The translations under genes were made by a program, and so were the position numbers. Below the pieces are notes generated by a model. The model was not told the DNA's origin, did not search any database, and saw only the letters and a program-made list of their open reading frames with translations. Shown here one piece after another: positions 14,300-59,738 of a DNA stretch of 64,000 nucleotides; the first letter of the stretch is position 1; each line of letters begins with the position of its first letter. The stretch comes from Chiloscyllium plagiosum. Taxonomy: Eukaryota. The stretch spans positions 73,726,399-73,790,398 of the forward strand of contig NC_057717.1 in the NCBI RefSeq assembly GCF_004010195.1, given 5' to 3'.

Positions 14300-17200
14300 T
14301 TTCTTCCTCCCACACTACCGCCCAACTGCAGTAGTGCTTATATGTTCCCCAGCACCCATGTTGTGTGTCCAAGTGTGAGACACAGTGAAAGACAAAAGAT
14401 GTACAAGTTTGTTATTCAGTTTACACAGCCATGAAGAAAGGAAACACCAGGATGTCCAGTGACAAGCAAAGCCCTTCTCATCAAAAGGTAATGTTGCATA
14501 ATCAAATAAAAAGTGAAGGGGCGGGCAGGGATTAATTCAAAATAGAGTTGGAGCGAGAAACAAAATGCTCCACTGCGGTGATCACCTGTACCTGAACAGA
14601 TCGAAGGCGTTAGTAGATACCATGTGCTCCTTCTCAAGGGACACCCGGGTTCTGACATAACCCTTGAAGACCGGCAGGCAATCGGCCATAACGACCCCCT
14701 TCATGGCCGACTGCTTCGACTTGAATTGCCTGTCCTTTATTTATATTTTTCTTTTATTTCCATTTGCCCCACACTACCACCGAACGGCAGTAGTGCTTGT
14801 ATTTTCCCCAGCACCCATGTTGTGTGTGTGCAGTTGTTAGAACAGTGAAAGACAACAGGTGTACAAATCTTTATCCAATTTCCACCACGAGGAAGAAAAG
14901 AAATACCCGCGTCACCAGTGACAAACAATGCCCTTCTCGCCAAAGGGCAATGCTGCGTGATCAAAAATGTGAAGGGGAGGGTAGGGATTAAATCAAAATA
15001 GAGATGGAGGGGGAAATAAAGCACTATTTCCCTGTGGTGCACACCTCTCCCTGAACAGCTCGAGGGAGGTGGTCGACACTGCGTGCTCCTTCTTCAGGGA
15101 AACCTGGGCTCTGACAGAACCATGGAAGAGTAGCAGGCAATCGGCCGTAACGACCCACTTCACGGGCCGTTGCTGGGGACATGAATTGTCTGTCTATTTT
15201 TTTCTCCACACTGCTGCCTAACAGCAGTAGTGCTTATTTCTCCCCAGCACCCATGTCGTGCATGTTCAGGTGAAGGACACATTGAAAACAACAAGTGTGC
15301 AAAAGTTTATTTATATTCCACCACCAGGAAGATAAGAAACACCCGAGTGGCCACGGACAAGCAATTCCCTTCTCATCAAAGGGCAATACTGCGCGATTCT
15401 AAAGCGCCTGATATATTTTTATTTTCTTTCTGTGGAGTCAGTCACCTAAACTGAGGAGATTGCAAATCTCCCGGTTATATTTTCAATTTTTTTAAATTTT
15501 ATTTTTACCCCCACACTACCACCTAAATGCGTCAGTGCTTATTTTCCCCCCAGCATCCATGATGGTTGTGTGCAGGTGTGAGATAAAATGAAAGATAACA
15601 GGTGTACAACTCACTATTCAATTTCCACCACCAGGGAGAAAGTAAACACCCTATTGGCTAATGACAAAAAAATGCCCTACACTTCATAAAGTAATGTGCA
15701 TGATCAAAAAAGTGAAGGGGAGGGCAGGGATTAAATTAAAATAGATTTGGAGCGGGAAATAAAATACACCACTCCCTGCGATTCCCACCTCCCCCCGAAC
15801 GGCTAGAAGGAGTTGTTAGAGACCGCATACTCCTTCTGTAGGGACACCTGGGCTCTGACATAACCACAGAAGTGGGACAGGCAAGCGGCTATAACGACCC
15901 TCTTCACTGTCCACTGCTTGGACATGAATTGTCCGTCTATTTTTCTTTAAGGAAATCCAGAAAGCAAACAATCTCAATAAACAATAAAGTGGAAACAAAG
16001 TACTTCAAAATAAACTCCTCCTTAGTGCGAGGACATGAAGAAAAATCAGTCTCCTCTCCTCTCTTCTTTAAAGAGCAGAGTCATTCCCTGCACACTGATA
16101 ATGCCCCGTTTATTTCATTTTTATTTCCCCCACACTACCACCTAACTGCAGTAGTGCTTATTTTTCCCTAGCACCCATGTTGCGTGCATGCTGGCGTGAA
16201 ACACAGTGAAAGACACAAGGAGAACAATTCTTTATTCAAATCCCCTTCTGCCGAGACACCCGGGCTCGAACGTACCCACCGAAGTGGTGCAGGCAATTAT
16301 CCATAATGTCCCTCTTCACAGCCCACTGCTTGGACCTGAATTGCTTGTCTTTCTTAAAATTTCTTTTGCTTTCCCCACCCGACCACCTAACTGCGGTAGT
16401 GCTTATTTTGTTTTTTTCCCCAGCGACGCAGTGAAAGACACAAGGTACACGAATCTTTACTCAGTTTCTACCATCAGGAAAAAAGAAAACACTCGAGTGG
16501 CCAGTGACGAGTAGTGCCCTTCTTAGACTGCAATGCTGCGTGATCAAACAGTGAGGGGGAGGGCAGGGAATAAATCAAAATAGACGTGGACGGGGGAATA
16601 ATACACTCCACTCCCAGCGGTGCCTTCCTCTCGCTGAACAGCATTAGGACACTGCGTGCCCTTTCTCCAGAGACACCCGGGCTCGAACGTACCAACTGAA
16701 GTGGTGCAGGAAATCATCCATAATGACCCTCTTTACCGCCCACTGCCTGGACCTGAATTGCTTGCCTTTTTTTTCCTTTGAGTGACACTTTTGTTTTCTT
16801 ATATTTTCCCCAGCGCCCATGTTGAATTTCCTGTTTACTTTTTGTTTGTTTGTTTTTTCTTTTTCCTCCCCCAGCACCCATGTTGTGTGTGTTCAGCTGT
16901 GAGACATTGTGAAAGACACAAGGTGTACAAATCTTTATTCAATTTCCACCACCAGAAAGAAAACAAAACCCGAGTGGCCAGTGACAAGCAGTGCCCTTCA
17001 CAGCAAAAGGCAATGCTGTGTACTCAAACAGTGAATAGGAGGGCAGGCATTAAATCAAAATGGAGTTGGAGGGTGAAGTAATGCACTCCACTCCCTGCAG
17101 TGCCCATCTCTCCCTGAACAGCTCACTGGTGTTGGTGGGCACCGTGTACCTATTCTGCAGAGACACCCGGGCTCGAACACACCCACCGAAGTGGGGCAGG

Positions 17201-18980
17201 AAATTGGCTATGAAGACTCTCTTCACTGCCCGCTGCCTGGACCGGAATTGCTTGTCTATTTTTTTATTACCCCGACACTACGGCCTAATTGCGATAGTGC
17301 TAATTATTTTTTTCCGCAGCACCCATGTTGTGTGTATGCAGGTGTGAGACACAGTGAAAGGCAAAGGTGTACGAATCTTTATTCAGTTTCCAGAACCAGG
17401 AAGAAAGGAAGCACCCGTGTGGCCAGTGACAAGCAGTGCCCTTCACATCAAAAGGCAATGCTGCGTCATCAAACAGTGAAGGTCAGGACAGGTGTTACAT
17501 CGAAATAGATTTGGAGGGGGAATTAATGCACTCCACTCCCTGTGGTGCCCATGTCTCCCTGAACAGCTCAAGGGTGCTGGTGGGCACTGTGTGCCCCTTC
17601 TGCAGAGACACCCAGCCCCGAACGGACCCACTGAAGCAGGACAGACGAGTGGGCATAATGACCCTCTTCATTGCCCGCTGCCTGGACCTGAATTGCTTGT
17701 CTTTTTTTTTGTTTATTTCACAATCCTGTTCATTTTTCTTTCCTTTTTTACCCCCTTTCCCCAGCACCCAAGTTGTGTGTGTGCAGGTGTGAGACACAGT
17801 GAAAGACACAAGGTGCACGAATCTATATTCAATTTCCACCACCAGGAAGAACGGAAACACCCAAGTGGCCTGTGACAATCAGTCCCCTTCACATCAAAGG
17901 ACAATGGTGCGTGATCAAACAGTGAAGTGGAGGGCAGGGATTAAATCAAAATAGATTTGGAGGGGGAAATAATGCACTCCACTCCCTGGAGCGCCCATCT
18001 CTCCCTGAACAGCTCAAGGATGTTGGTGGGCACCGTGTGCTCCTTCTGCAGAGACACCCGGGCTAGAACGCACCCAGTGAAGCGGGGCAGGAAATCGGCC
18101 ATAATGACCCACTTCACTGCGCGGTGGCTGGACCTGAATTGCTTCTCTATTTTTTTCCCCAGCAGCCATGTTGTGCGTGTGCAGATGTGAGACACTGTGA
18201 AAGACACAACGTGCACGTATCTATATTCAATTTCCACCACTAGGAAGAAAGAAAACACCCAACTGGCCAGTGACAAGCAGTGCCCTTCACATCAAAGAAC
18301 ATCACATGCGTGATCAAACAGTGAAGGGAGGGTAGGGATTAAATCAAAATAGAGTTGGAGGGGGAAAAATGCACTCCAATCCCCGCAGCGCCCACCACTC
18401 CCTGAACAGTTCAAGAGTGTTGGTGGGCACCGTGTGCCCCTTCTGCAGAGACACCAGGCCTTGAACGCACCCACCAAAGCGGGCAGGCAATCGGCCATTC
18501 TGACCCATTTCACTGCCGGCTGCTTGGACCTGAATTGCTTGTCTTTCTTTAAAGAGTGAACAAAACCTCTCGCATTCTTGTTCATTTTTTTAGAATTGGT
18601 TGTCTTTCGTTTTTCTATGTACAAGTGTAAGGCACAGTGAAACACACAAGGTGCACGAATCTTTATTCAGTTTCCACCAACAGGAAGCAAAGAAACATCC
18701 GAGTAGCCAGTAACAAGCAGTGCCCTTCATATCAAAGAGCGATGCTGCGTGATAAAGCAGTGAAGGGGAGGGCAGGGATTAAATCGAAATAGAGTTGGAG
18801 GGGGAAATAATTCACTCCACTCGCTGCAGCGTCCACCTCTCCCTGAACAGTTCAAGGGTGTTGGTGGGCACCGTGTGCCACTTCTGCAGAGACACCCGGG
18901 CTCGAATGCACCCACCGAAGCGGGGAAGGCAATCGGTCATAATGACCCTCTTCACTGCCAGCTGCCTGGACCTGAATTGC
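14300..18980 (-). repeat. Tandem array of ~10-11 units (~400-460 bp) of the Tx1 3' end
   Basis: Units end on the + strand at a GGACCTG|AATTGC-like junction near 14729, 15189, 15932, 16344, 16761, 17251, 17696, 18142, 18538 and 18980. The minus strand encodes RARVSLQKEHTVPTNILELFRERWALQGVECIISPSKSILI*, matching copy A's ORF2 end, followed by AATAAA and an A-rich tail. Confidence 0.92.
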
Positions 18981-19649
18981 TTGTGTATTTTTTTAAAGTG
19001 AACAGAAACTCTAGCATTCCTGTTATTTTTTTTTTCGATTTTTTTCTTTTTTTTACCTTTATAATTGCTTGTCTATATTGGTCAGCTGGCCTTCCTGATT
19101 GGGTGGGATTAACAGATCGAATCAAGTGTGTCATAGTAAACAGGATCCACTTGGTTCTAATCAGTACAGGACCCAACATGAAATTTCATTTGCCTCCATT
19201 ACAATTAGAATAATTCTCTATTTTAAATAATTCTTCTCACATAACCCACCCTCTGAAACTATTCACCATACCTCTCAGGAGCTCTCGCAATAGTGCAGCT
19301 GTACATCACCTTTCTCGAAATGTAAGCGTAATGAGGATATATTTGACCTGGAGGGAATGGAGACTTCATTCATCAGGACGTAGTCTGCATTAGAGCAGTT
19401 TAGCTATGAAAAGAGTCTGGATAGGTTTTGATTGCTTTCTTTGAAGCAGAGAAACCAGCAAGAAAACCTGATTGAGGTGCAAAAGAATACCAGGGTTATG
19501 GACAGGATATGAAGCAGCGTTTCCCCTTAGGTGATGATGCATGATTTTTAAAATATTGGGCATGAGAGGTGGGTTTCCGGATTTTCTTTCAACCAGACAG
19601 TGGTTGGAAGATGGCCTGAGGGCTCTCTGATTCTTCACAAAGAGAACTG

Positions 19650-20750
19650 TTCATTTGAACAACTTCACCTTTATTTCCTCTCATTTGTTAAGCACAAACA
19701 TGTGTGTATAAATATCTGCATGGGCACCAGTTTGTTTGTTGCTTTGTGAGTTAGCTCGAACACTCGATGACCTAGGTCCTACTCCCAAAAGCTCTTTCTG
19801 TAGCACATCGATTACATTATTACTACTGCTTTCCACTCTCGTGCAGAATTTGAAAAAAAATATAAATATTGCTTCCAATTTCTATCCTTTATGCACATTC
19901 ACCTAATATGTCTCTGAGACCACACGCCCCATTCTTGTTTCCATTTCTAGAGGTAAGGAGGCCACTGATATTCATTACAAACCAACCAAATCCCAGAGTT
20001 GCCTTGGCTACATAGCCGCATACGCTACTTCCTATATTGATAAACATTGCATTGTCCCAGATCCTCCATCTCCGACATATCTGTTCTGTCAATGCTACTT
20101 TCTGAAAGGGAGTCTCAAAAAAATTTTATCATTTCCCTCAACTGAGGATTCCATGCTTGAGAGTGCCCTGAGCCATAGCCAACCCATTTCCTGTACTACT
20201 GCCCTTACGCCATCCACACCACCACAAAGAAAGAGTTTCCTCTGTTTCCACACCAGCAGCCTCCATATTCAAAGGATCATTAGCTGCCACCTTTGGCAAG
20301 AACCCACCATCAGAATTTTTTTTAACTTGTGTCCCTTAACAGCATTTACAGGCACCATTTCCTCTGGAACATGGTGCTCCAATCGTAAACCATCGTCACA
20401 CACCCAGAACAACTTCACATGCAATTGCAGATGGTCTAACACTTGTCAATTTACCTGCTCCCTTCACATGATCGAAGACCCAAGTTCACTTTTCAATTGA
20501 AGCAGCGATTAACCTTTACCTAAATCGATTAGCATTCACTGCTCACAATACGTTCTCCTTTACATGCAGAAAAGAAATGCAGGTTGGCTAATAGCTTTGT
20601 CGAACATCTGTGCCATGTCTGTAAAAATTACCCCGCGCTTCCAGTTGCCAACCTGCTTCAATACAGTCGTAGGCCGGCAGTAGTGCTCCAGAAAAAATCA
20701 AAATGTGCTGAAGGAATAGCGCATTATCTTGCAGATAGATAAAAATTTAA
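19650..20750 (+). mobile_element. Highly decayed Penelope-like element (RT / GIY-YIG region) fragment
   Basis: Degenerate similarity to PLE RT (aacttcacctttatt..atgggcacc..gcacatcgatt) and to a downstream endonuclease-like segment. No intact ORF. Confidence 0.5.
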
Positions 20751-22815: not shown

Positions 22816-23372
22816 GTTTGACTGACTTACTTTAAAATTTCAGTGTACTTCTGGTGAACGATGAAAGAGAAATTTGGTCAAGAGAATTCTTAAGTGCTGA
22901 ATTATTTGTGACGAAGAACTCTACTCTCAAATGACTGTAAATTAAACAGTTTTAGCATATTTCGTGGGTTGTAAAAGGGGAACCGGGTGAAAAGTCAATT
23001 TACAGCTCTGGGTCAGTATTCAGTCTTCCATCAAAGTGATGGAAACAGTAATTACGTTAATTATAGAATTGCTATTTGCCAGATCATCCTCTGCCCCTCT
23101 GTGCAAACTTATTTTTTCCACTTTGAATTTATGACCGTAGTTATAAGTATTTTCATTGCTGGTATAGGTTCTTTCTATCGTTCCTTCGTTCTTTATTTCT
23201 TTCTCCTCCTATTGATTCAAGTTTCTCAATTATCGATTTATATAATTCGTTATTTTGATTTATAGTCATTCCGGAAAAATGATGCTTTCCACACTTCAAC
23301 CATAAAATCTGTGCTAAGCAGGCAATTTTGTGAAGCTCATCAGAATTGTTTGTAATACACTCTGTTTTATAG

Positions 23373-23711
23373 TTACTGTCCCTCAGAAAACGTTCCCGCA
23401 GATGCCAGCGCATCAGATGGTCTCAATTGGAAACACAGTTAAATTGCATTGTCATACGGGTCAGTTGATTTATGATGCCGTTCTATGGTATAAACAACAG
23501 CTGCGAGAACGTTTGCAATTCGTTTACACCGTGGGCAAGCACTTACCTCCAGATGGAAGATTTTCTGGAGAAGTGAACAACAAATCCACTGAGTATTCGC
23601 TTGTGATTCGCAATATCCAGAGAAATGATTCTGGTATATATTACTGCTCCAATAGGAAATCGTACCTTAACCCCTTAGTATTCGGAAATGGATCAAAAGT
23701 CCTCATAACAG
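23373..23711 (+). CDS. IgSF VJ-C1 receptor exon 2: V-set domain with germline-joined J segment
   Basis: Acceptor ttttatag. Motifs G.TVKLHC, WYKQQ, RFSG, YSLVIRNIQRNDSGIYYC and J motif FGNGSKVLIT. Donor G|GTAAGA. Phase 1 at both ends. Confidence 0.95.
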
Positions 23712-23798
23712 GTAAGAATAGCAACAGACTTACAGATTTCACTATCAATAATCAACAACGTTAACTCATATTTTTATGTTATCTCCCAAAATCATCAG

Positions 23799-24101
23799 GC
23801 CGACCCAAAATAATCATTTTGTCTACACCGCTGGATGAAATGTTTCCTTTGGAATTTGTCCCATTGATGTGTTTAGTGAGCAACGTGATATCCGATACTG
23901 CTGTCATCGACTGGAATATATCCACTTGGGATGCTAAGGGTTGGTCAGATTTTGTGACAATGAATTCTGCCACGGCATACAGTATCATAAGTCACATCAG
24001 AGTTCCAGCAGAAGCGTGGAAATATGATACTGTCTGTACTTGCTCAGTTCAAATCAACTCAACTGCAATTCTTGTCAGTGAAAAGCTCTTATATCAGAGA
24101 G
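23799..24101 (+). CDS. IgSF VJ-C1 receptor exon 3: C1-set-like constant domain
   Basis: Follows an 87-nt intron. GRPKIIIL...LMCLVSN...VIDWN...YSIISHIRVPAEAWKYDTVCTCSV. Donor G|GTAAAT. Phase 1 at both ends. Confidence 0.9.
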
Positions 24102-25479
24102 GTAAATATTGGACATCACAGTTGATCTTTCGGGTTAATTTGAATATTAGATTTTATTGTGAATAATACGTGCTTTCATCCATTAACGGTGCTCCCTTTC
24201 TTTGCATCAATGTCTGAATTTTCAAACAATTACCTCCTTCAGATAACTCAATCGAAATTTAACTTATTGAATGATTATGAGAATCCGTTGAAGTAATGCA
24301 TGGTCTGACCGTCTTCTGCTTAAAATGGAAAAAGAATGATCTAATTCGAGTTCACTACGTTCTCTGATAATATTTCTGAATTGTTCTCTGTGTTTCATAG
24401 CATTCATATCACAGAAATACATAATGTAGCTAAAAACAATCAGTGATTAAAACGAAATTAACATTTATTTAACTGTTCGTTCAAGGATCTTCCAAAATAT
24501 TTATTTTGATGAAGCTATCACAATATTTGGCTGTCTTTATCCCACGAGTATTTAAGAAATCTGAGTGCTTCATGTCCACGTCAAAAGATGTTGTCCAATA
24601 CTATCCTATCAAATTATTTCACAAGCCGAGTTCCTCTTTCAGAGCAACAACAAAAGATAGGTTTTTCAATTATTTTAATTGGTTCAAACATTATCTTCTC
24701 GTCTCACTACAGTAAATCATTTTCTTGAATGTTCTCCACTGCATGTATATACATTTGCAATTGAGCAGCATATCGGTCCATCATGCTTAAAGTTTGAGTA
24801 AATCAATATTCGTTTGGCGTAATCCATCACTTGTTATATTGCTTTGCAACTCTGTGTTTGCTGATGTAAACTTTTATCCTTCACTTTGGTCCTTATCAGC
24901 CTATGTGAATTTACATAATTTGAACTTTTTTTCCACATAGCGCCAATCACCTGCTATTGGGAAAAAAAGAGTCCACAAAATATTTCATCCAACAGAGATA
25001 ATTAAGGATTATTTAGTTGAATATAGTTGTGGAAAGCAAAATGGGTTTTGGATAAAGATTTTGACTTCAAATCACCATTCAAGTCATGAAAAGTTATAAA
25101 TTGGGGCGAGGACTGGTTGTGAGGGATGTAAATATTTATGGAACTGATGTCAAAAATATTTCAGATAGCATTTCTAAGCGAACACTTTAAGATTAAATGA
25201 TGAAAGGCGATGTGAACTTTATGTAATTCAATAAATTTGTGCCTCACACATCAATATCTTCACACTTCAAAATCTTCACCCTTCTCAACAGACACAAATT
25301 ATTGTTTGTTACGGAAAATATAAAACTGGCAATATGGATGAAACGATGTGCAACAGAAACGAGAAAAGCAGCTGTTGTTTGGAACAGATAAACAGATGTA
25401 GAAGTACAAACAGACGTTTAGATTTTGCGTTAATACAGCAATTTGTAGAAATTTGCAAATGTACATTCTGCCGAACAGG

Positions 25480-35430: not shown

Positions 35431-35464
35431 ATCCTGATGAAGGGCGTTTGCCCGAAACATCGAT
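35431..35464 (+). ncRNA. Minimal type I hammerhead ribozyme-like motif (Penelope end)
   Basis: atc CTGATGA a gggc gttt gccc GAAA ca TC gat: core, 4-bp stem II and 3-bp stem I. Confidence 0.55.
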
Positions 35465-35794
35465 TTTCCTGCTCCTCGGAATGTGTTAACTCTCAACGAA
35501 ATTTACAAGTTAAATAAAGCAAGAATTAGAATTAAATAGTTTTTGCTTTTCAATGAAATTTCATTCATCATAGGGAGTTATAGAAAATTAACGCTAATGT
35601 ATTGTAATCACATGGAGAAAGAAAGTTGGCCAAAATCTGAATTCTGCCTCTGGAATCGAAACACAGTAAATTTAAAATCGTTAAAGGCACTCAAAAATAA
35701 CTCCAATAGTTGTACCAGAATTTCTAATTGACGAATTCCAGAGTGTGCACAGAACCGTCTATGGACCTGGTCTGAAAATTAAACCAAAACAAGT

Positions 35795-35910
35795 TGCCCA
35801 AAACATCGATTTTCCTGCTCCTCAGATGCTGCCTGACCTGCTGTGCTTTTCCAGCACCACTCTAATCTTAATTCTAATCTCCAGCATCTGCAGTACACAC
35901 CTCCGCCTGA
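35795..35910 (+). mobile_element. Penelope-type terminal fragment
   Basis: gcccaaaacatcgattttcctgctcctcagatgctgcctgacctgctgtgcttttccagc; homologous to 50260-50320. Confidence 0.7.
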
Positions 35911-37084
35911 CATCAAATATTGGCTTATCCTGTAATTAGCACCTTAACAAGTTTTCGTGAAGAGCAATTCAGGGAAAAGTACTGCAGCAGGCTATTAGTG
36001 GCAGATATGTATCGGTAAATCTTCTCCCCTTGCCATAAACAAGCACATCAGTGGAAGCAAGGAGCTCGTGTCATTATCGCTAGGCTATTAATTGTGAACC
36101 ACAGTTGGGCTTGAAGACTGCCATGGCAGCTGGTTGAATTTGAATTTGAATTGATGTTTTTAAACAATCTGGAAAAAAGAAACTACTGATGACCAAGAGA
36201 CTATTGACAAATATCGGATATTCCCATCTGCTTAACTAATGGAAGTAAACGTGTATTCCTTATCCGGTCTGCCAAATCTAACTCCACACCTTCATGCAGT
36301 TGACGCTCAGACACCCTCCGGCCAACCAGGAATGAGCAATGAATGCTGGCCTAGCTAGCGTTACGAACTCACCTTGCATTCATTTTTTTTTTGAAATCCT
36401 TTCTATACATCTATGCTTTTAGGGTAATTCATTGGTTTTCTAAATTTTGTTAACTGCTCGTGCATAATACAGGGAAAAAATTGATTATGATTATCTTACC
36501 TATGCTTCTTAACGCAATTTATAAATTAAATAAAGTAAGGTTAGAATTAAATACTTTTTTTTTGTTTTTTGAACTACTTCTAACGTTAGCCTGGATACAC
36601 TTTATCCATTCTCAACCAACATAACATTCCATAATACTGAAAGTAATATATTTGCAGTTTACAAGTAATGACACTGACCGACAATTCAAACAGATTACTG
36701 ACAGAAATGAAGTCAAAAAAATAAATTGCAGGCAATGACGCATCTTTGTCTCTATGAGTGATGTTAATGCTTCCAAAAAGTCTAATTCAATGATAAAGCA
36801 TGATATGCTATTCACTACCCCATGGACAGTCTTGTAGAATACCTGTGGTGTGCAGCTGTAACCTCTTTATTAGCGGGTTCCGCTGACTTCTTTGTGCTAC
36901 TAGCTAACTTTCATGACTTCACATTATATCCCTTTCTCCTTCTTGAATCCCCTTCTTATATCATCTTCTCCTCCTCCTTATTATGTTTGCTGCTTACCAG
37001 CTTGATCAAATTTCATTAATCACAGGAGTTATGGAAAATTAACGCTAATGTATTGTTCCAGCACGAAGAAAGAAAGTTGGCCGA

Positions 37085-37255
37085 AATCTGACTTCATAAG
37101 ATAAGCTCTCCAGTCCAGGCAGCATCCTGGTAAGCCTCCTCTGAACCCTCTCCAAAGCATATTTCGTTTAATAGGGCGACTAGAACTGGACTCAGTATTC
37201 CAGGTGCAGTCTAACCAAAGTTTTATAGAGCTGCACAAAGATCTCACGAATCTTA
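37085..37255 (-). mobile_element. Short CR1 fragment
   Basis: Homologous in reverse to 805-965. Confidence 0.8.
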
Positions 37256-37563
37256 AATGTTGGTCAAATACAGAGGTCTAGGAACAGCTGCACTTTTTTA
37301 AAAATATGTATACATTTGCGTGCATCAACAATTATCCACCTCCTATTGTGAAGGCAGTTTGAAGCTTATTTCCTCACCTTACTACAGAAACAGTAACGAT
37401 GAAATAAAGATCATGCACTTTTTCATACATTTTACAATAGTCGAGAAATAGAAATATTTATTTCAACGAAGTAAAAACAATGACTGCAGATGTTGGAAAC
37501 CAGATTCTGGATTAGTGGTGCTGAAAGAGCACAGCAGTTCAGGCAGCATCCAAGGGACTTCGA

Positions 37564-37599
37564 AATCGACGTTTCGGGCAAACGCCCTTCATCAGGAAT
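37564..37599 (-). ncRNA. Minimal hammerhead ribozyme-like motif
   Basis: The minus strand reads attc CTGATGA a gggc gttt gccc GAAA cg TC gatt. Confidence 0.6.
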
Positions 37600-38332
37600 A
37601 AAGGCAGTGAGCCTGGAGCGTGGAGAGATAAGCTAGAAGAGGGTGGGGGTGGGGAGAAAGTAGCATAGAGTACAATAGGTGAGTGGGGGAGGGGATAAAG
37701 GTGATAGGTCAGGGAGAAGAGGGTGGAGTGGATAGGTGGAAAAGGAAATAGGCAGGTAGGACAAGTCTGGACAAGTCATGGGGACAGTGCTGAGCTGGCA
37801 TGGTTGAAGAGCTTCAGGACAGAGGAAATGACCTGAGAGTTGCAGTGGGAGACGGACTCCATGAGATTCTTGTAGAGAGAGGAGGAAAGCTTCTTCAAGG
37901 CAGGCATCCTTGCAAGAGGATTCGCAGTAGGGATAAAATCAACGAGGTAAAAACAATGACTGCAGATGCTGGAAACAAGATTCTGGATTAGTGGTGCTGG
38001 AAGAGCACAGCAGTTCAGGCAGAGGGTGGAGTGGATAGGTGGAAAAGGAGATAGGGAGGTAGGACAAGTCCGGACAAGTCATGGGGACAGTGCTGAGCTG
38101 ACATGGTTGAAGAGCTTCAGGGCAGAGGAAATGACCTGGAAGTTGCAGTGGGAGAGGGACTCACTGAGATTCTTGTAGAGAGAGGAGAAAAAGACAGGCA
38201 TCCTTGGAAGAGGATTCGCAGTAGGGTTAAAATTGACGAGGTAAAAGCAATGACTGCAGATGCTGTAAACCAGATTCTTGATTAGTGGTGCTGGACGAGC
38301 ACAGCAGTTCAGGCAGCATCCAAGGAGCTTCC

Positions 38333-38370
38333 AAATCGACGTTTCTGGCAAAAGCCATTCATCAGGAATT
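38333..38370 (-). ncRNA. Minimal hammerhead ribozyme-like motif (variant stem II)
   Basis: The minus strand reads aattc CTGATGA a tggc tttt gcca GAAA cg TC gattt. Confidence 0.5.
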
Positions 38371-40874
38371 AAGGCAGTGAGCCTGGAGCGTGGAGAGATA
38401 AGCTAGAGGAGGGTGGGGGTGGGGAGAAAGTAGCATAGAGTACAATAGGTGAGTGGGAGAGGGAATGAAATGATAGGTCAGGGAGAAGAAGATGGAGTGG
38501 ATAGGTGGAAAAGGAGATAGGCAGGTAGGACAAGTCCGGACAAGTCATGGGGACAGTGCTGAGCTGGCATGTTTGAAGAGCTTCAGGGAAGAAGAAATGA
38601 CCTGGGAGTTGCAGTGGGAGAGGGACTCCCTGAGATTCTTGTGGAGAGAGGAGGAAAACTTCTTCAAGGCAGGCATCCTTGCAAGAGGATTCGCAGTAGG
38701 GGTTAAAATCAACGAGGTAAAAACAATGACTGCAGATGCTGGAAACAAGATTCTGCATTCGTGGTGCTGAAAGAGCACAGCAGTTCAGGCTTTTGAGGGA
38801 AACGTCGATTTCGAACCTCCTTGGATGCTGCCTGAACTGCTGAGCTCTTCCAGTACCAATAATCCAGAATCTGATTTCCAGCATCTGCAGTCATTGTTTT
38901 TACCTCGTTGATTTTAACCCTACTGCGAATCCTCTTGCAAGGATGCCTGCCTTGAAGAAGTTTTCCTCCTCTCTCTACAAAAATCTCAGGGAGTCCCTCT
39001 CCCACTGCAACTCCCAGGTCATTTCCTCTGCCTTGAAGCTCTTCAACCATGCCAGCTCAGCACTGTCCCCATGACCTAGGCTATCTCCACCCCCACCCTC
39101 CTCTAGCTTATCCCTCCACGCTTCAGGCTCTCTGCCTTTATTCCTGATGAAGGGCTTTCACCTATTGTACTCTATGCTACTTTCTCCCCGCCCCCACCCT
39201 CCTCTCGCTTATCTCTCTCCACGCTCCAGGCTCAATGCCTTTATTCCTGATGAAGGACGTTTGCCGGAAACGTCGATTTCGCAGCTCCTTGGATGCTGCC
39301 TGAACTGCTATGCTCTTCCAGCACCACTAATCCAGAATATTTATTTCATGCTAGATTGGTTTGCGATTTAGAAGAGACGTACTTGTGACAGTCTTCCTAT
39401 TCAACTACTGAATATTTTTTTTCTTGGAGATTACAAACATTTAGCAGAAGCTGCCCAGGGAGCTTTGGAGAATTGACATAGTGCATTTTATGCAGCACTA
39501 CTCTTCTTGTGAAAAGGGATTGCAAATTTTAAGTGGCGGACAGCATACTGATCAAGCTGGTTTTTCTTAGATAGTATGGGAAGTCTTGCGCATTATACAA
39601 CCACTTTCATTAACGCAAATCTTGGCCTATGCTTTTTATGTGTGACTAGATTTTGGAAGTTAAAAAATATGTTTCTCACTTCAGAATTTATTGTCATGCA
39701 CTTTCTCATGATCTGCTGCAGTGTTTTTAAGTTTGTTCACATCAGTTCCTCATTACCTCCAAAATGATAATCATTTTGGATTCATTAATGTTTGTTTATT
39801 CTTGTAATGGATAACGCCATCATTGAAAAGACCATTCTTGAGAGCAAGGAAAAGTCAAAGACATTTTTGTGTTTGGATTGTGATACACGCCAGCAATTGT
39901 ACCAATGGAATATCGCCTTCCCATTCGATATGAGTAAATCATTTTATACTTACCAGTGATAATTTCGCCCTCAATGTTAAGGAAAATAGCTTCCGATTCG
40001 AAATTTCAATTCTTACCTCTATCTCATCAGCTAATGGTTAACTGTTACCCCAAAATATTAGCTGAGATTGAGGTTAAGTTGTCCTGAAGCGTTATTAGTG
40101 ACAGATTATCTTTCTTACAGCAACAGTTAATGTCATTGCTTGTCAAGTGGAGATAGATCAGTCAGTTTTGTTGAAGATTTTCATTCATTTTCACTTCTGT
40201 AGCCTGACCTGTAGCATGTCCTTATCTGTCCAAAACCGTAAATCTTTCTCAAGACTACTGAAAATTGGCACACCCAGTTTTAAGCTCTGAGGAGTGGACA
40301 TTGTTGTGGACATTTGCAATCATAACTTAACTTCCCCATGTCTGATCCTGAAATGGTCGGAAAGTCAATGAGAAAACGGTTGAAGTTGATAGCATTATTG
40401 TATCATAATGTACTCGAGCATTGATGAACACAACCGACAGAACTGGGTTCAAATGTTCACTTCAACTGTGTCATTGCTTTTTCATGTTCAAGCTGCTCTA
40501 CTTGCAATTGAATTCCAGTCATTTCCAAAGATTCTGATGGCATTGCCAGTAATTTTAAATGCCGAGATATTGCTCAAAGTATCTCTCTTTTTCTCACAGA
40601 CTCAGGCAACCCTAACTCCAGCTTGCCTGCCAATCCAAACAGCTTTGCCTTGTGCCTATTTTTTGTTAAATCCACGAAGTCACTTCTTCCACCTCCAGAA
40701 ATCTCTTAGTCACCAAACAAACCACTACTCGAAAACGTGCACCCTGTTTAAAACATCCAAAATCAACACTCGAAACAAAAGGCACTAACAGTTCCCATTT
40801 GCCACCTTTGAGTCTAATAAAACCTTACCTAACTTGGAAGAATAAATATTTAAGGTGTACAAGGGGCCAAAAAT

Positions 40875-47539: not shown

Positions 47540-48950
47540 ACTGTCAACCCCATGCCTCCAATTATTTTTCAATGTCCTACTGTGGGGAACCTTATCAAAC
47601 GCCTTCCTGAAAATCATATACACTACATCAACCGCTTTACCCTAATCCAACTGGTTGTGCACCGCCTCAAAGAACTCAATACAGTTTGTGAGGCACGACC
47701 TACTCTTTATAAAACCGTGTTGACTATCCCTAAACAATTTAATCCTTTCTAGATGATTATAAATCCTATCCGTTATAATGATTTTTTAACACTTTACCCA
47801 CAACCAAAGTTACGCTTACTGGTCTGTAATTACTCGAATTGTCTCTACTCCCCTTCTTGTACAAGGGTTCAACATTTGTGATCCTCCAGTCTTCTGGCAC
47901 AATTCTTGTAGGCAATGATGACATAAATATCAAAGCCAAAAGCTCTGCAATCTCCTCCTTGCCATCCCAGAGAATCCAAGAAGTCCCATACAGTCAAGGG
48001 GATTTATCTATTTTCACACTTTCCAGAATAACTTAATCTGGTTAGTCTAGTAGCCTGTATCTCTGTATTCTCCTCGACAACGATGTTTTTTTTCCAGTGT
48101 GAATACCAACGAAAAATATTCATTCATCGCTTCTCCTATCTCCTCAGAATCCATACGCAACCTCCCACTATTTTTCTTGGGTGGCCATTATCTTAATCTA
48201 GTCATTCTTTTATTCCTGATATAACTGTAGAAAGCTTTCATATTTTGGTTGATCCTATCTGCCAATGAATTCTCTTGTCGGTTACTGTTTCTTCTTTGTT
48301 CCACTTTCGGTGTTTCCCGGCTAGCTCGTAATTCCCAAGCAACCTATCTGAGACTTCATGTCTCATCCTGACATCAACCTTCTTCTTTTTCTTGACAAGA
48401 TATTGAACTTCCTTAATAAACCACGGTTTCCCCAAAGGACCACTTCTTCCCTCACTAACAGGTGCATACTTATCAAGGACAGGCCGTAGCTGTTCTTTGA
48501 ATAAGCTCCCTATCTCAATTGCACAAGTTTCCTTCGCCATCCTATGCGAACTAAATTTCGCCTAGTTTCATCATAATTGCCTTCCCCGCAGTTATAACTC
48601 TTCCCTTATGGTTTTATGCCTATCCCTTTCCATCGCTAAAGTAAACATTATCAAACTGTGGTCACTATTACTGAAGTGCTCACCTAACTCCATATCTAAC
48701 AAATGTCCGGGTACTTTACCCAGTACCAAATCCAATATGGTAAAAACAATGACTGCAGATGCCGCAAACTAGATTCTGGATTAGCGTGGTGCTGGAAGAG
48801 CACAGCAGTTCAGGCAGCCTCGGCTCTTGTTGGCCTATCTACAAACTGTATCAGCAAAGCCGCCTACGCACTTTGACCCATATAAAGTAATCAAAATACA
48901 GCATTTTCACTCAATATTTGAAAAATTAAAGCCACCATAACAGGGTAGCT
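47540..48950 (-). mobile_element. CR1 ORF2 internal fragment, containing a Penelope-end insert at 48740-48818
   Basis: Colinear with 60700-61990; the insert is homologous to 37471-37548. Confidence 0.8.
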
Positions 48951-49339: not shown

Positions 49340-50470
49340 CCTTGTTTTCCCATGACTCTAGTATTGCCAGACGAATGGATTCTGCATTTATCCCTCTGCT
49401 GTTCGTGGTCTCGGTACATGATTTGAAGGAAAACTTGCCAGGTCAAATGAGTAAGTTTGTGGACGTTACAAAAATTGATGAGTTTGTGGATAATCGGAAG
49501 GACTGTCAAAGGATGCAACAGGGTATGGATCAGTTGGACCCAAGGGCAGGAACATAGCAGTTGCCGTTTAATCCGGACAAAGGGGGGTGACACATTTTGG
49601 AAGGTCAATACAGTTGGAAATTATGCCGTGAATGACGGTACCCTGAGGAGTTCTGATATGCAGACGGTTCTGATTGCGCACTTCCACAGGCCACAAAGGG
49701 TGTCAGCAGTCGATGAGGTAGTGAAATAGATCTCTGGCTTGCTTGCTTTAATTGGAAAGGGAATTGAGTATAAGGATAGACAAGTTATGCTGCAATTTTA
49801 TAGGACTTTAGTTAAGCCACACTTGGAATATTGCGTACATCTTTTTTGTTACCACACAACAAGAAGTGTCTGAATGGATTGGAAAGGGTAAAGAGAAAAT
49901 TTACCAGCAGGTGTGGGGTGGGATTTTAGCGATGAAGTACTGTTGGGTAGACTGATTTTCTTTTCACTGGAAGACAGAAGTTTGAAGGATAATCTGGTAG
50001 AATTTTCTCAGTTTTTGAATGACATGGATACAATGCAAACCACAAGACATTTTCGCAGTGTGCAGGGCTACCAGAGAACACACCTTCAAGGAGCGGGGGC
50101 AGGTAGGAGTTGAAGAGAGACATGTGAGCACATTTTTCACGGAAAGGGTGGTGAATGTGTCGAACGCACCGACAGAGGAGGTGGTAGAAGCGGACCCAAC
50201 AACAACATTTAAGAAGAGCCTGGGCAAAATCATGAAGAGGTTCCTGAAGAAGGGCCTGTGCCCGAAACGTCGAATCTCCTGTTCCCTGGATGCTGCCTGA
50301 CCTGCTGTGCTGTTCCAGCAATAAAGTTTCAACCAAAATCATGAAGAGGAAGTGTAAAAATGGAAATGTATCCTATAGGTAAAGACATCTTTCGTACGGA
50401 AGGCAAAGTTGTGTCGACGCAGGCTTGGAGGACCGAAGGGCCTGCTCTCGTCCTGTATTGTTCATCGTTC
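49340..50470 (+). mobile_element. Old CR1 3' fragment
   Basis: SKFVDVTKI and FFTERVVNVSNA..EEVVEA. Confidence 0.8.
50237..50278 (+). ncRNA. Minimal type I hammerhead ribozyme in a 93-bp TSD-flanked insertion (50241-50333)
   Basis: gaggttc CTGAAGA a gggc ctgt gccc GAAA cg TC gaatctc: 7-bp stem I and 4-bp stem II. TSD CAAAATCATGAAGAGG at 50225-50240 and 50334-50349. Confidence 0.7.
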
Positions 50471-51728: not shown

Positions 51729-51837
51729 ATTCCTGATGAAGGGCTTTTGCTCCTCGGATGCTGCATGCACTGCTGTGCTTTTCCAGCACCTCTAATCCAG
51801 AATCCGGTTTCCAGCATCTGCTGACATTGTTTTTACC
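51729..51837 (+). mobile_element. Penelope-type end with half of the hammerhead deleted
   Basis: attcctgatgaagggcttttgc|tcctcggatgctgc...cagcatctg...cattgtttttacc; same family as the 37466-39335 unit. Confidence 0.75.
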
Positions 51838-52578
51838 GACTTGAAAGAAAAGCACTATCAATATTCCAATAATTAAATTTGTCCAGCCAACTGAGCGCTC
51901 CTTGACATATACTTAGATGGTTAAGGGCTCCTACCCTCTGATGTGCAGAATCCCATTCATCCTCAAAGTCCAAGCTAAACAAATATGCACCATCTCAGGT
52001 TTTGATGTTTTATTGTTCTGAGATAATGACTCTTTGTCTTTGGTTCCCCATCTGAGGAAACATTCGCCTAGCATGGTCATGATTTGTTTCTTATGAATTG
52101 TGCATGTTTAAGTGAGACCTCATCTCATTCTTCTCACTCAAAAGGAAGATGGGTCCATTCAAGTGACTACCGTTTCATAGAACAGTTTTGCATGCTGGGG
52201 TTCTATCCGTGAATCAATTTGACAATCACGGTAGGGCAGGTATGTTCTCCCTTTGGCAAGCAATATAAAGATGCACACCATGCTCCAGGCGTTGCCTCAC
52301 AGAGCCGTTTTCTAATTTAGTTAGTCTCATTTAGTTAGTGGCTGGATGGCTGCTTTACAATGGACAATAATTGCAACAGAGCGCATTCCATTCACACACT
52401 GGCTGAAATTACCATGATGGTTTCCTCTTCTCAACCTTTCTCTCGCCTCAGGTTAAACCACAAGAAATCTTCCATCTTTGCCTATTAGGGCTATAGGAAC
52501 ATTACACTTTTACCAAATCACAATTCATTTTGTAACACAATCTGAAATCCGTTTACCTTTGATCTCCTTAGACTGATA

Positions 52579-56886: not shown

Positions 56887-59738
56887 TCCAGATACCATCC
56901 AGAGGGTGGTTAGTGGTTAAAAAAGGAGGGGGTGTGGCGTTGCTAATTAGAAATGGTGTAATGGCTGCAGAAAGCCAGTTCGAGGGGCATCTGCTTTTGG
57001 AGGTAGTATGGGCTGAAGTCAGAAATAGGAAAGGAGCAGTCACCTTGTTGGGGGTTTACTATAGGCCCCCCAATAGCAGCGGAGATGTGAAGAAACAGAT
57101 TGGGAAACAGATTTTGGACTGGTGCAGAAGCCACAGGGTAGTAGTCATGGGCGATTTCAACTTCCCAAATATTGATTGGAAGCTCTTTAGATCAAGTAGA
57201 TTGGATGGGGCAGTGTTTGTGCAGTGTTTCCAGGAAGCTTTTCTAACCCAGTATGTAGATTGTCCGACCAGAGGGGAGGCCATTTTGGATTTGGTACTCT
57301 GTAATGAACCGGGACAAGTGATGNNNNNNNNNNNNNNNNNNNNNNNNNNNNNNNNNNNNNNNNNNNNNNNNNNNNNNNNNNNNNNNNNNNNNNNNNNNNN
57401 NNNNNNNNNNNNNNNNNNNNNNNNNNNNNNNNNNNNNNNNNNNNNNNNNNNNNNNNNNNNNNNNNNNNNNNNNNNNNNNNNNNNNNNNNNNNNNNNNNNN
57501 NNNNNNNNNNNNNNNNNNNNNNNNNNNNNNNNNNNNNNNNNNNNNNNNNNNNNNNNNNNNNNNNNNNNNNNNNNNNNNNNNNNNNNNNNNNNNNNNNNNN
57601 NNNNNNNNNNNNNNNNNNNNNNNNNNNNNNNNNNNNNNNNNNNNNNNNNNNNNNNNNNNNNNNNNNNNNNNNNNNNNNNNNNNNNNNNNNNNNNNNNNNN
57701 NNNNNNNNNNNNNNNNNNNNNNNNNNNNNNNNNNNNNNNNNNNNNNNNNNNNNNNNNNNNNNNNCCTTGGTTGACGAGGGAGGTTGAATGTCTTGTAAGG
57801 AGAAAGAAGGAGTCTTACATAAGGTTGAGGAAACAAGATTCAGACAGAGCGTTGGAGGGATACAGGATAGCCAGAAGGGACCTGAAGAAAGGGATTAGGA
57901 GAGCTAAGAGAGGGCATGAAAAATCGTTGGCGGATAGGATCAAGGATAACCCCAAGGCATTTTATGCGTATGTGAGAAACATGAGAATGACAAGAACGAG
58001 TGTAGGTCCGATCAAGGACAGTAGTGGGAGACTGTGTTTTGAGTCGGAAGAGATAGGAGAGGTCTTGAACAAGTACTTCTCTTCAGTATTTACGAACGGG
58101 AGGGACCGTATTGTAGAAGAGGAGAGTGTGAAATGGACTGGTAAGCTAGAAGAGATACCTGTTAGGAAGGAAGATGTGTTGGACATTTTGAACAACTTGA
58201 GGATAGACAAGTCCCCCGGGCCTGACGGGATATATGCTAGGATTATGTGGGAAGCAAGAGAGGAAATTTCAGTGCCGTTGGCAATGATCTTCTCGTCTTC
58301 ACTGGCAACGGGGGTGGTACCAGGGGACTGGAGAGTAGCGAATGTTGTGCCTCTGTTCAAAAAAGGGAATAGGGATAACCCCGGGAATTACAGGCCTGTT
58401 AGTCTTACTTCTGTGGTAGGCAAAGTAATGGAAAGGGTACTGAGGGATAGGATTTATGAGTATCTGGAAGGTCACTGCTTGATTAGGGACAGCCAGCATG
58501 GATTTGTGAGGGGTAGGTCTTGCCTTACAAGTCTTATTGAATTCTTCGAGGAGGTGACCAAGCATGTGGATGAGGGTAGAGCAGTATACATGGATTTTCG
58601 TCAGGCATTTGATAAGGTTCCCCATGGTAGGCTTATGTGGAAAGTCAGGAGGCATGGGATAGAGGGAAATTTGGCCAATTGGATAGAAAACTGGCTAACT
58701 GGTCGAAGTCGGAGAGTGGTGGTAGATGGTAAATATTCAGCCTGGAGCCCAGTTACAAGTGGAGTTCCGCAGGGATCAGTTCTGGGTCCTCTGCTGTTTG
58801 TAATTTTTATTAATGACTTAGATGAGGGAGTCGAAGGGTGGGTCAGTAAATTTGGAGATGATACGAAGATAGGTGGAGTTGTGGACAGTGAGGAGGGCTG
58901 TTGTCGGCTGCAGAGGGACTTAGATATGATGCAAAGTTGGGCTGAGGAGTGGCAGATGGAGTTCAACCCTGCCTAGTGTGAGGTTGTCCATTTTGGAAGA
59001 ACAAATAAGAATGCGGAATACAGGGTTAATGGTAGGGTTCTTAGTCAGGTGGAGGAACAGAGGGATCTTGGGGTCTATGTACATAGATCTTTGAAGGTTG
59101 CCACTCAGGTGGATAGAGTTTGTAAGAAGGTCTATGGAGTATTATCGTTCATTAGCAGAGGGATTGAATTCAAGAGTCGTGAAGTGATGTTGCAGCTGTA
59201 CAGGACTTTGGTTAGGCCACAGTTGGAGTACTGTGTGCAGTTCTGGTCGCCTCACTTTAGGAAAGATGTGGAAGCTTTGGAGAGGGTGCAGAGAAGGTTT
59301 ACCAGGATGTTGCCTGGAATGGAGAGGAAGTCGTACGGGGATAGGTTGAGAGTTCTCGGCCTTTTCTTGTTGGAACGGCGAAGGATGAGGGGTGACTTGC
59401 TAGAGGTTTATAAGATGATCAGAGGAATAGATAGAGTAGACAGTCAGAGACTTTTTTCCCGGGTACAACAGAGTGTTACAAGGGGACATAAATTTAAGGT
59501 GAAGGGTGGAAGGTATAGGGGGGATGTCAGGGGTATGTTCTTTACCCAGAGAGTGGTGGGGGCATGGAATGTGCTGCCTGTGGGAGTGGCAGAGTCAGAA
59601 TCATTGGTGACCTTTAAGTGGCAATTGGATAGGTACATGGATAGGTGCTTAAGCTAGGACAAATGTTCGGCACAACATCGTGGGCCAAAGGGCCTGTTCT
59701 GTGCTGTATTGTTCTATGTTCTATGTTCTATGTTCTAT
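56887..59738 (+). mobile_element. Young 5'-truncated CR1 LINE (EN-RT ORF2, one in-frame stop at 58974)
   Basis: ORFs 56913-58976 and 59049-59657 with [23 protein letters not shown] and FGDDTK; (TGTTCTA)4 tail at 59710-59737. Confidence 0.95.
57324..57764. other. Assembly gap (441 N)
   Basis: N run. Confidence 1.

What the first reader, a model, noticed from the sequence alone, without database searches (positions are those of the whole stretch)
37466..39335. Retrozyme-like multimer: a Penelope reduced to a hammerhead-bearing ~476-nt monomer, inserted as one concatemer
Seen: each unit is hammerhead, leader, the first ~36 codons of an ORF (MPALKKFSSSLHKNLRESLSHCNSQVISSSLKLF), the same junction (ttcaaccatg|ccagctcagcac), then a 3'-type region and the next hammerhead. 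About 3 direct units are followed by ~1 inverted unit, and the whole is bounded by a 13-bp TSD. Known: PLEs carry minimal type I hammerheads in their pseudo-LTRs, and retrozymes are non-autonomous hammerhead elements that spread as tandem copies via circular RNAs. Inference: an internally deleted PLE was reverse-transcribed from a circular or multimeric RNA with twin-priming-like inversion, giving a snapshot of retrozyme origin in a shark.
Basis: partly seen in the sequence, partly recalled or inferred. Interest (0 to 1): 0.75.

Follow-up and report, generated by a model that had tools for sequence, protein, structure and literature searches.

The report
Multimeric mini-Penelope insertion in shark
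This 1.9-kb insertion holds four copies of the same shortened jumping-gene unit with hammerhead-ribozyme motifs, likely copied in one event by a Penelope-like element's enzyme; the layout is the known Penelope one, and a circular RNA template is possible but not shown.

Summary
The insertion is real: 37466-39335, a 13-bp target duplication, and an empty site with one target copy in a related organism. Four copies of one junction join ORF codon 37 to the element's 3' end; a shark protein and parent-type contigs confirm it. Copies differ privately (3.6% each; 3 shared sites against 1.2 expected), so they were multiplied at about the same time. But this is no clean concatemer. Periods are 476 and 294 nt. 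There are three full hammerhead cores, two halves and three internal jumps, and no two full cores lie one unit apart. Head-to-head arms, a one-sided 41-nt tail and an AT-rich target are the published Penelope-like (PLE) insertion pattern. Best reading: a tandem template of an internally deleted PLE, copied in trans in one event. A hammerhead-made circle is not excluded (about 0.2). The junction at other loci could not be tested: no genome is held. A July 2026 preprint already derives animal retrozymes from PLE ends and includes a chondrichthyan. This scan has reported other shortened and palindromic PLE copies in this genome, not this unit. Interest 0.3.

The parts
37453..37465 (.). Left copy of the 13-bp target-site duplication (12 of 13 A/T); its last 3 bases also match unit positions 80-82
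   Evidence: empty site in organism B
37466..37544 (-). L0: 3' end of the left arm, unit positions 1-79 (leader); runs 41 nt further than the right arm (one-sided tail)
37545..38020 (-). L1: full 476-nt pass (leader, ORF start, junction, 3' region, hammerhead h1); used as the unit ruler, position 1 = 38020
37568..37595 (-). h1: minimal type I hammerhead core, helix II 4 of 4 pairs with G10.1-C11.1; helix I weak (2 pairs, then a U-U mismatch)
37776..37907 (-). ORF remnant in L1: ATG at 37907, 109 nt of the parent ORF, junction at 37799|37798, stop a few codons later
38021..38314 (-). L2: 294-nt pass, unit positions 1-303 with a 9-nt deletion in the ORF start; junction at 38102|38101; jumps to position 1 of L1 over a 2-nt microhomology and so lacks its hammerhead
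38315..38790 (-). L3: full pass, unit positions 1-476; junction at 38568|38567
38338..38365 (-). h2: minimal hammerhead core, helix II 4 of 4 pairs but with U-A in place of G10.1-C11.1
38788..38829 (+). Inversion centre: 3-nt microhomology (38788-38790) and a 39-nt loop holding the 3' half of a hammerhead (unit positions 435-476)
38830..39075 (+). R1: inverted pass, unit positions 1-246; ORF remnant 38943-39074 (43 codons); junction at 39051|39052
39076..39158 (+). R2: unit positions about 352-440, ending in the loop of a hammerhead 5' half (39145-39158)
39159..39297 (+). R3: unit positions 340-476, with hammerhead h5 (39247-39274; full core, helix II 2 of 4 pairs)
39298..39335 (+). R4: 3' end of the right arm, unit positions 1-38 (39-41 shared with the TSD)
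39336..39348 (.). Right copy of the 13-bp target-site duplication

Best explanation
This is one target-site-duplicated insertion holding four copies of a 476-nt internally deleted Penelope-like unit, likely reverse-transcribed in trans by the parent element's enzyme from an uncleaved tandem RNA. Shown: the unit keeps the hammerhead-bearing 3' end, the leader and 109 nt of the ORF; the empty site; head-to-head arms whose 3' ends lie 41 nt apart in the leader, each sharing 3 bases with the target; copies with almost only private changes. Inferred: (1) a deleted copy already sat in tandem somewhere in the genome, as PLE insertions naturally do, and was transcribed through its hammerheads; (2) the PLE protein cut an AT-rich site on both strands and started at two internal leader sites; (3) the mirror arm came from second-strand priming or from fold-back at the 3-nt microhomology in the centre; (4) the three internal jumps are template switches, or later deletions in an unstable long inverted repeat. 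The copy is now a decaying, non-coding relic.
For: Empty site with one target copy, (X9 record 19). Parent-type sequence stops at the junction from both sides: protein P0002 and contigs ending at 37798 and 39051 that go on in other sequence. Two junctions and the hammerhead between them lie on one unbroken 770-nt stretch, so the template held more than one unit. 65 differences from the majority in 1788 positions, 3 informative sites against 1.2 expected for independent decay (P=0.12), two of them mutually incompatible. Decay per copy (3.6%) is close to half the flank divergence from organism B (8.2%), which fits insertion near that split. The right arm's 3' end (position 38-41) is also where 64 contigs with unrelated flanks end in X9. 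Partial tandems, an inverted 5'-truncated copy, a one-sided 30-40-bp tail and 8-10-bp TSDs are described for PLEs. In vitro a PLE protein cut both strands at AT-rich sites, started internally at two sites and used uncleaved RNA. Non-autonomous PLEs with multicopy head-to-tail insertions are described (MRC1).
Against: No second locus with this junction was seen. 0 of 24 listed pieces cross a junction, while 6 of 24 come within 8 bases of one and go on in other sequence; 151,284 pieces were not shown, and the list favours long, diverged contigs. The parent's reverse transcriptase and endonuclease were not read: P0002, P0003 and P0005 have no significant Pfam match, and only a shifted-frame motif is compatible. 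Star-like decay fits a circle equally well. The internal junctions of the array were not verified by reads (no listed piece spans them), and the window has a gap of Ns elsewhere (441 N), so local misassembly is not excluded. The left-flank contigs of X1 and X5 differ from the window at 9 and 7 letters, so these samples are not the window's haplotype.
Confidence: 0.58

Rival explanations
1. Retrozyme route: a dimeric transcript of the deleted unit cut itself at two hammerheads, closed into a 476-nt circle, and the PLE enzyme rolled round the circle to make both arms.
For: Copies look identical at birth. If two jumps are read as skips, the arms span at least three units each. No breakpoint lies at the cleavage site (position 453), as a seamless circle would give. 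Circles were proposed as the source of PLE tandems, and retrozyme arrays are reported in a chondrichthyan genome.
Against: No two full cores lie one unit apart. The hammerhead is the minimal PLE type with a weak helix I, and the predicted fold hides the core by 3.7-5 kcal/mol in h1 and h2. Minimal PLE hammerheads cleave poorly, and 1 of 9 Xenopus dimers cleaved. At position 438 both 3'-terminal hammerheads have G and the three inner ones T, and both left-arm segments start at position 1 (about 1.5% by chance). Both hint at a linear template with non-identical units, but neither is decisive.
Confidence: 0.2
2. One-off circle without the ribozyme: unit positions 223-476 and 1-222 are contiguous across a normal PLE tandem boundary, so a 476-nt piece of parent RNA or cDNA could have been closed at 222|223 once and copied round in this single event.
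For: It explains four identical junctions with no master copy. The junction shows no shared letters: parent-type contigs end exactly on either side. No other junction locus was seen (limited).
Against: It needs an unobserved end-joining step. The parent sequence upstream of position 223 was not seen, so a splice-type joint could not be checked.
Confidence: 0.12
3. Local amplification: a short deleted copy inserted, and the array then grew in place by slippage or unequal exchange (or partly by misassembly).
For: L1 and L3 both start at position 1 and share T at position 44, while L0, L2 and R1 have G. A preprint favours local amplification for retrozyme arrays.
Against: Pairwise distances are 5-9% for 14 of 15 pairs (12% for one 75-nt pair), with no close pair; site 21 conflicts with site 44. 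The array holds no flank DNA and both outer ends are family-type 3' ends bounded by the TSD. Copies 5-9% apart are unlikely to be an assembler's duplicates.
Confidence: 0.1

Closest known systems
Insertion units of endonuclease-bearing Penelope-like elements (Arkhipova et al. 2013, PMC3846280; Craig et al. 2021, PMC8557442; Frangieh et al. 2024, PMC11167929)
   Same: Partial tandem, adjacent inverted 5'-truncated copy head to head, one-sided tail, TSD at an AT-rich site, minimal hammerhead in the terminal repeat; an internally deleted, TSD-flanked derivative is described in Adineta.
   Different: Here the repeated body is 476 nt, so one insertion holds four junction copies; the tail is 41 nt and the TSD 13 bp, slightly above the ranges in the passages read.
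Non-autonomous PLEs with multicopy head-to-tail insertions (Chlamydomonas MRC1 and relatives; PMC8557442, PMC9940879)
   Same: Non-coding, shares the 3' end of an autonomous family, inserted as several head-to-tail copies.
   Different: MRC1 is a shown, active family; here one locus only, about 3.6% decayed per copy, and it carries hammerheads, which most Chlamys elements lack.
Animal non-LTR retrozymes (de la Pena and colleagues 2020, PMC7229834; Li, Clavereau and Pollet, bioRxiv 10.64898/2026.07.22.740005)
   Same: A few-hundred-base non-coding unit with a type I hammerhead, in tandem, with a TSD over 4 bp, related to a PLE terminal repeat.
   Different: No two consecutive complete hammerhead units; minimal, not canonical, hammerhead; unit not self-paired (z = +0.34); includes an ORF start and a deletion junction; no circle or dispersed family shown.

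Membership tests
Penelope-like element (derivative) | Minimal type I hammerhead in the terminal repeat (one unpaired base after A9, G10.1-C11.1 pair, palindromic 15.2-16.2) | tested here: met
   h1 has all three features; h2 and h5 have drifted (features)
Penelope-like element (derivative) | Parent ORF with PLE reverse transcriptase and GIY-YIG endonuclease | tested here: inconclusive
   Only 36 codons remain. Three shark homologues have no significant Pfam match. A recalled KPADKG motif is compatible with a shifted frame at the end of P0002 (2 of 200 shuffles) but not found in P0003; 'DKG' is named as a PLE RT motif. No endonuclease seen.
Penelope-like element (derivative) | Partial tandem plus inverted 5'-truncated copy, head to head | tested here: met
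Penelope-like element (derivative) | One-sided 30-40-bp tail; 3' ends at internal start sites | tested here: met
   41 nt (positions 42-82); position 38 is a shared end point of 64 contigs
Penelope-like element (derivative) | Target-site duplication at an AT-rich site | tested here: met
   13 bp, 12 of 13 A/T, empty site in organism B
Non-LTR retrozyme | Tandem repeat with a complete type I hammerhead in at least two consecutive units | tested here: not met
   Full cores 770 nt apart on the left arm, one full core on the right; no TRF array (criterion)
Non-LTR retrozyme | Canonical type I hammerhead (helix I about 6 bp, loop contacts), as in the coral and axolotl families | tested here: not met
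   Helix I 2 pairs then a mismatch, no helix III loop; no Rfam hit. The 2026 preprint also admits minimal motifs.
Non-LTR retrozyme | Non-coding monomer of a few hundred bases | tested here: met
   476 nt, 43-codon remnant only; above 150-450 bp, within 51-972 bp
Non-LTR retrozyme | Highly self-paired monomer RNA | tested here: not met
   Unit folds no better than shuffles (59 of 100 fold as well); one decayed copy tested
Non-LTR retrozyme | Same unit dispersed at several loci | tested here: inconclusive
   No genome held; 0 of 24 listed pieces cross the junction, 151,284 not shown
Non-LTR retrozyme | Self-cleavage and accumulation as circular RNA | not testable with these tools
   Only a poly(A) single-cell run could be laid; circles and short RNAs are lost in such libraries

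The most novel reading that the evidence does not exclude
The 476-nt unit circulated as a circle (hammerhead-made from a deleted dimer, or closed once at the junction) and the Penelope enzyme copied it by rolling-circle reverse transcription into both arms of one dated insertion: a single-locus record, with empty site, of a PLE giving rise to a retrozyme-like replicon that keeps the ORF start as well as the terminal repeat.
Probability: 0.3. Interest if true: 0.6.

Novelty: new member of a known kind. Interest (0 to 1): 0.3.

Why it matters
How PLE tandems and animal retrozymes arise (circular template, linear read-through or local amplification) is open in the papers read. A TSD-bounded multimer with an empty site and star-like copies argues that several units can arrive in one event, against gradual local growth. 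That makes the locus a usable test case: one genome search and one cleavage assay would decide between the routes. On its own it is one decayed insertion of a very abundant family, in a known architecture.

Tried and rejected
No whole genome is held, so the junction search could not be run. Exact pattern scans found 0 matches for the junction in metagenome contigs and 0 for the ORF start in prokaryote genomes; a protein-alignment scan gave 126 pattern matches, none confirmed. These collections are not expected to hold shark DNA, so the blanks say nothing. A search for a full-length parent protein found none among proteins of 812-2315 residues and 2 among those of 254-811. P0004 and P0006 are repetitive proteins matching about 27 residues; I dropped them as chance. 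The ESM Atlas gave only helical-repeat look-alikes, with no family to name. Rfam: 5 weak matches, none a hammerhead. No RNA holder listed. In the one RNA run laid (X21, poly(A) single cell, about 2 in 100 read), depth was 90-143 over 37470-37657 and 1-4 in the four junction bins; reads lay on both strands and 95 in 100 ran on into unlike sequence. This looks like family stubs inside other transcripts and does not bear on circles. Rejected: that breakpoints mark the ribozyme cut (none of the segment ends is at position 453). Rejected: a hairpin stall as the cause of the position-1 breakpoints (the hairpin is predicted in 1 of 4 copies). Rejected: captured flank DNA (none). The joint table was dominated by other family copies and did not test the array's inner joints (15 shown, 732 not).

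Full report
OBSERVATION. The insertion spans 37466-39335 between two identical 13-bp repeats (37453-37465, 39336-39348). Public runs were laid on 37000-39800 (4 of the 24 runs listed). In organism B one contig joins the two flanks with the spacing expected for a single target copy, so the repeat is a true target-site duplication and no flank DNA was captured. Two samples of organism A hold the left junction, and one holds 5 bases of the right junction. The inner joints of the array were not verified by reads.

ANATOMY. I use L1 (38020 to 37545, minus strand) as a 476-nt ruler. Leader: 1-113. ORF start: 114-222. Junction: 222|223. 3' region: 223-425. Hammerhead core: 426-453, with the predicted cut after 453. 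The left arm reads 1-476, 1-303, then 1-476, 1-79. The right arm reads 435-476, 1-246, about 352-440, 340-476, 1-38. The arms are head to head, joined over 3 shared bases with a 39-nt loop, and fold as a DNA hairpin at the centre. Their 3' ends face the target, each sharing 3 bases with it, and lie 41 nt apart. There are four junction copies, three full hammerhead cores and two halves.

THE JUNCTION IS REAL. The ORF start is 35 of 36 identical to the N-terminus of a Chiloscyllium punctatum protein that continues in other sequence. Relatives in Hemiscyllium and Stegostoma are 75-78% identical, so the host is probably a bamboo shark or close kin (inference). Parent-type contigs end at 37798 and at 39051, on either side of the junction, and run on in other sequence. 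That the parent is a PLE rests on the hammerhead and the insertion pattern. Its RT and endonuclease were not read; a recalled RT motif is only compatible with a shifted frame of P0002 (2 of 200 shuffles; not found in P0003).

HAMMERHEAD. The core pattern occurs 4 times in the window and in none of 100 shuffles. h1 has the features listed for minimal PLE hammerheads: one unpaired base after A9, G10.1-C11.1, and a palindromic helix III. h2 has U-A at that pair, and h5 has lost two of four helix II pairs. Helix I is two pairs followed by a U-U mismatch. The predicted best fold hides the core; forcing the hammerhead shape costs 5.0 kcal/mol in h1, 3.7 in h2 and 19 in h5. A sister-family copy at 50244 folds into that shape unforced. 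Activity is untested.

ONE EVENT OR MANY. Over nine passes there are 65 differences from the majority in 1788 positions (3.6%). Only 3 sites are shared between copies, against 1.2 expected for independent decay (P=0.12), and sites 21 and 44 cannot sit on one tree. No pair of copies is closer than 5%. Flank divergence from organism B is 50 of 607 (8.2%), about 4% per lineage, close to the decay per copy. The copies were thus multiplied at about the time of insertion, near the A/B split (inference). The stretch 38790-38021 passes two junctions and one hammerhead without a break, so the template held the deleted unit at least 1.6 times, or was a circle.

MECHANISM. The outer features match published PLE insertions: partial tandems, an inverted 5'-truncated copy, a one-sided tail and a TSD. 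A purified PLE protein cut both strands at AT-rich sites, started at two internal RNA sites and did not need hammerhead cleavage. Here the right arm's end is also an end point of 64 contigs with unrelated flanks, and 333-351 contigs per DNA run begin 4 bases before the hammerhead core rather than at the cut site, which fits uncleaved templates in this family. I therefore favour an uncleaved tandem transcript of a deleted copy, mobilised in trans (0.58). Two weak hints favour a linear template: both left-arm segments start at position 1 (about 1.5% by chance), and position 438 separates terminal from inner hammerheads. Neither excludes a circle. A hammerhead-made circle gets 0.2, a one-off circle closed at the junction 0.12, and local amplification or misassembly 0.1.

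WHAT COULD NOT BE TESTED. No genome is held. In one search, 6 of 24 listed pieces come within 8 bases of a junction and none crosses, but 151,284 pieces were not shown and the list favours long, diverged contigs. This is weak evidence against old, numerous junction-bearing copies and none about young ones.

KNOWN WORK. Read: bioRxiv 10.64898/2026.07.22.740005, parts 1-3 of 5, supplements not seen and possibly relevant; PMC11167929, parts 1-2 of 4; PMC4209133, parts 1-2 of 4; passages only of PMC3846280, PMC8557442, PMC7229834, PMC9940879, PMC6155905 and PMC8969392. The preprint derives animal retrozymes from PLE terminal repeats and finds them in its one chondrichthyan genome. Multicopy non-autonomous PLEs are known from Chlamydomonas. 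Six searches listed no paper on this shark unit; the library lacks most subscription journals and Repbase was not searched. Earlier notes of this scan describe many truncated, palindromic and internally deleted PLE copies in this genome; look-ups by sequence found no match to this unit. They are unchecked and are not counted as support.

VERDICT. Real, well bounded and datable. It works like a PLE insertion of a non-autonomous multimer and resembles a retrozyme, but fails three retrozyme membership tests. New member of a known kind; interest 0.3, rising to about 0.6 if a circular template were shown.

Noticed in passing
window 23318-24166 (+): Two adjacent open frames encode an immunoglobulin V-set domain (E 1.6e-14) with an apparently joined J-like FGxG motif and a C1-set domain (E 3.4e-05): a possible shark immune-receptor gene.
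   Followed up: partly
window 16869-19032: Two adjoining tandem arrays of about 440-445-nt units (2.9 and 1.9 copies) with no hammerhead core on either strand.
   Followed up: no
window 35432-35491, 35794-35894, 48728-48821, 50241-50324, 51749-51850: Five further short stubs of the same or a sister hammerhead-bearing terminal repeat. The one at 50244 has a 7-pair helix I and folds unforced into the hammerhead shape.
   Followed up: partly
window 37599 (unit position 422): Hundreds of contigs per run with unrelated flanks begin 4 bases before the hammerhead core: a family-wide 5' boundary that is not the cleavage site.
   Followed up: partly
window 19907-20700 (+): A decayed frame that by recalled motifs looks like the RT end and endonuclease of another Penelope-like element; no Pfam match.
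   Followed up: partly
window 35491-35644 against 36507-36559 and 37005-37095: An old local duplication (about 85% identity, two pieces) in the left flank.
   Followed up: no
window 39052-39074 and its three sister copies: The deletion leaves the ORF start open for seven more codons up to a stop; whether that stop is the parent ORF's own end was not seen.
   Followed up: no
window about 57320-57760: A run of Ns (441 in the window) inside a long LINE-like reading frame marks a scaffold gap.
   Followed up: no
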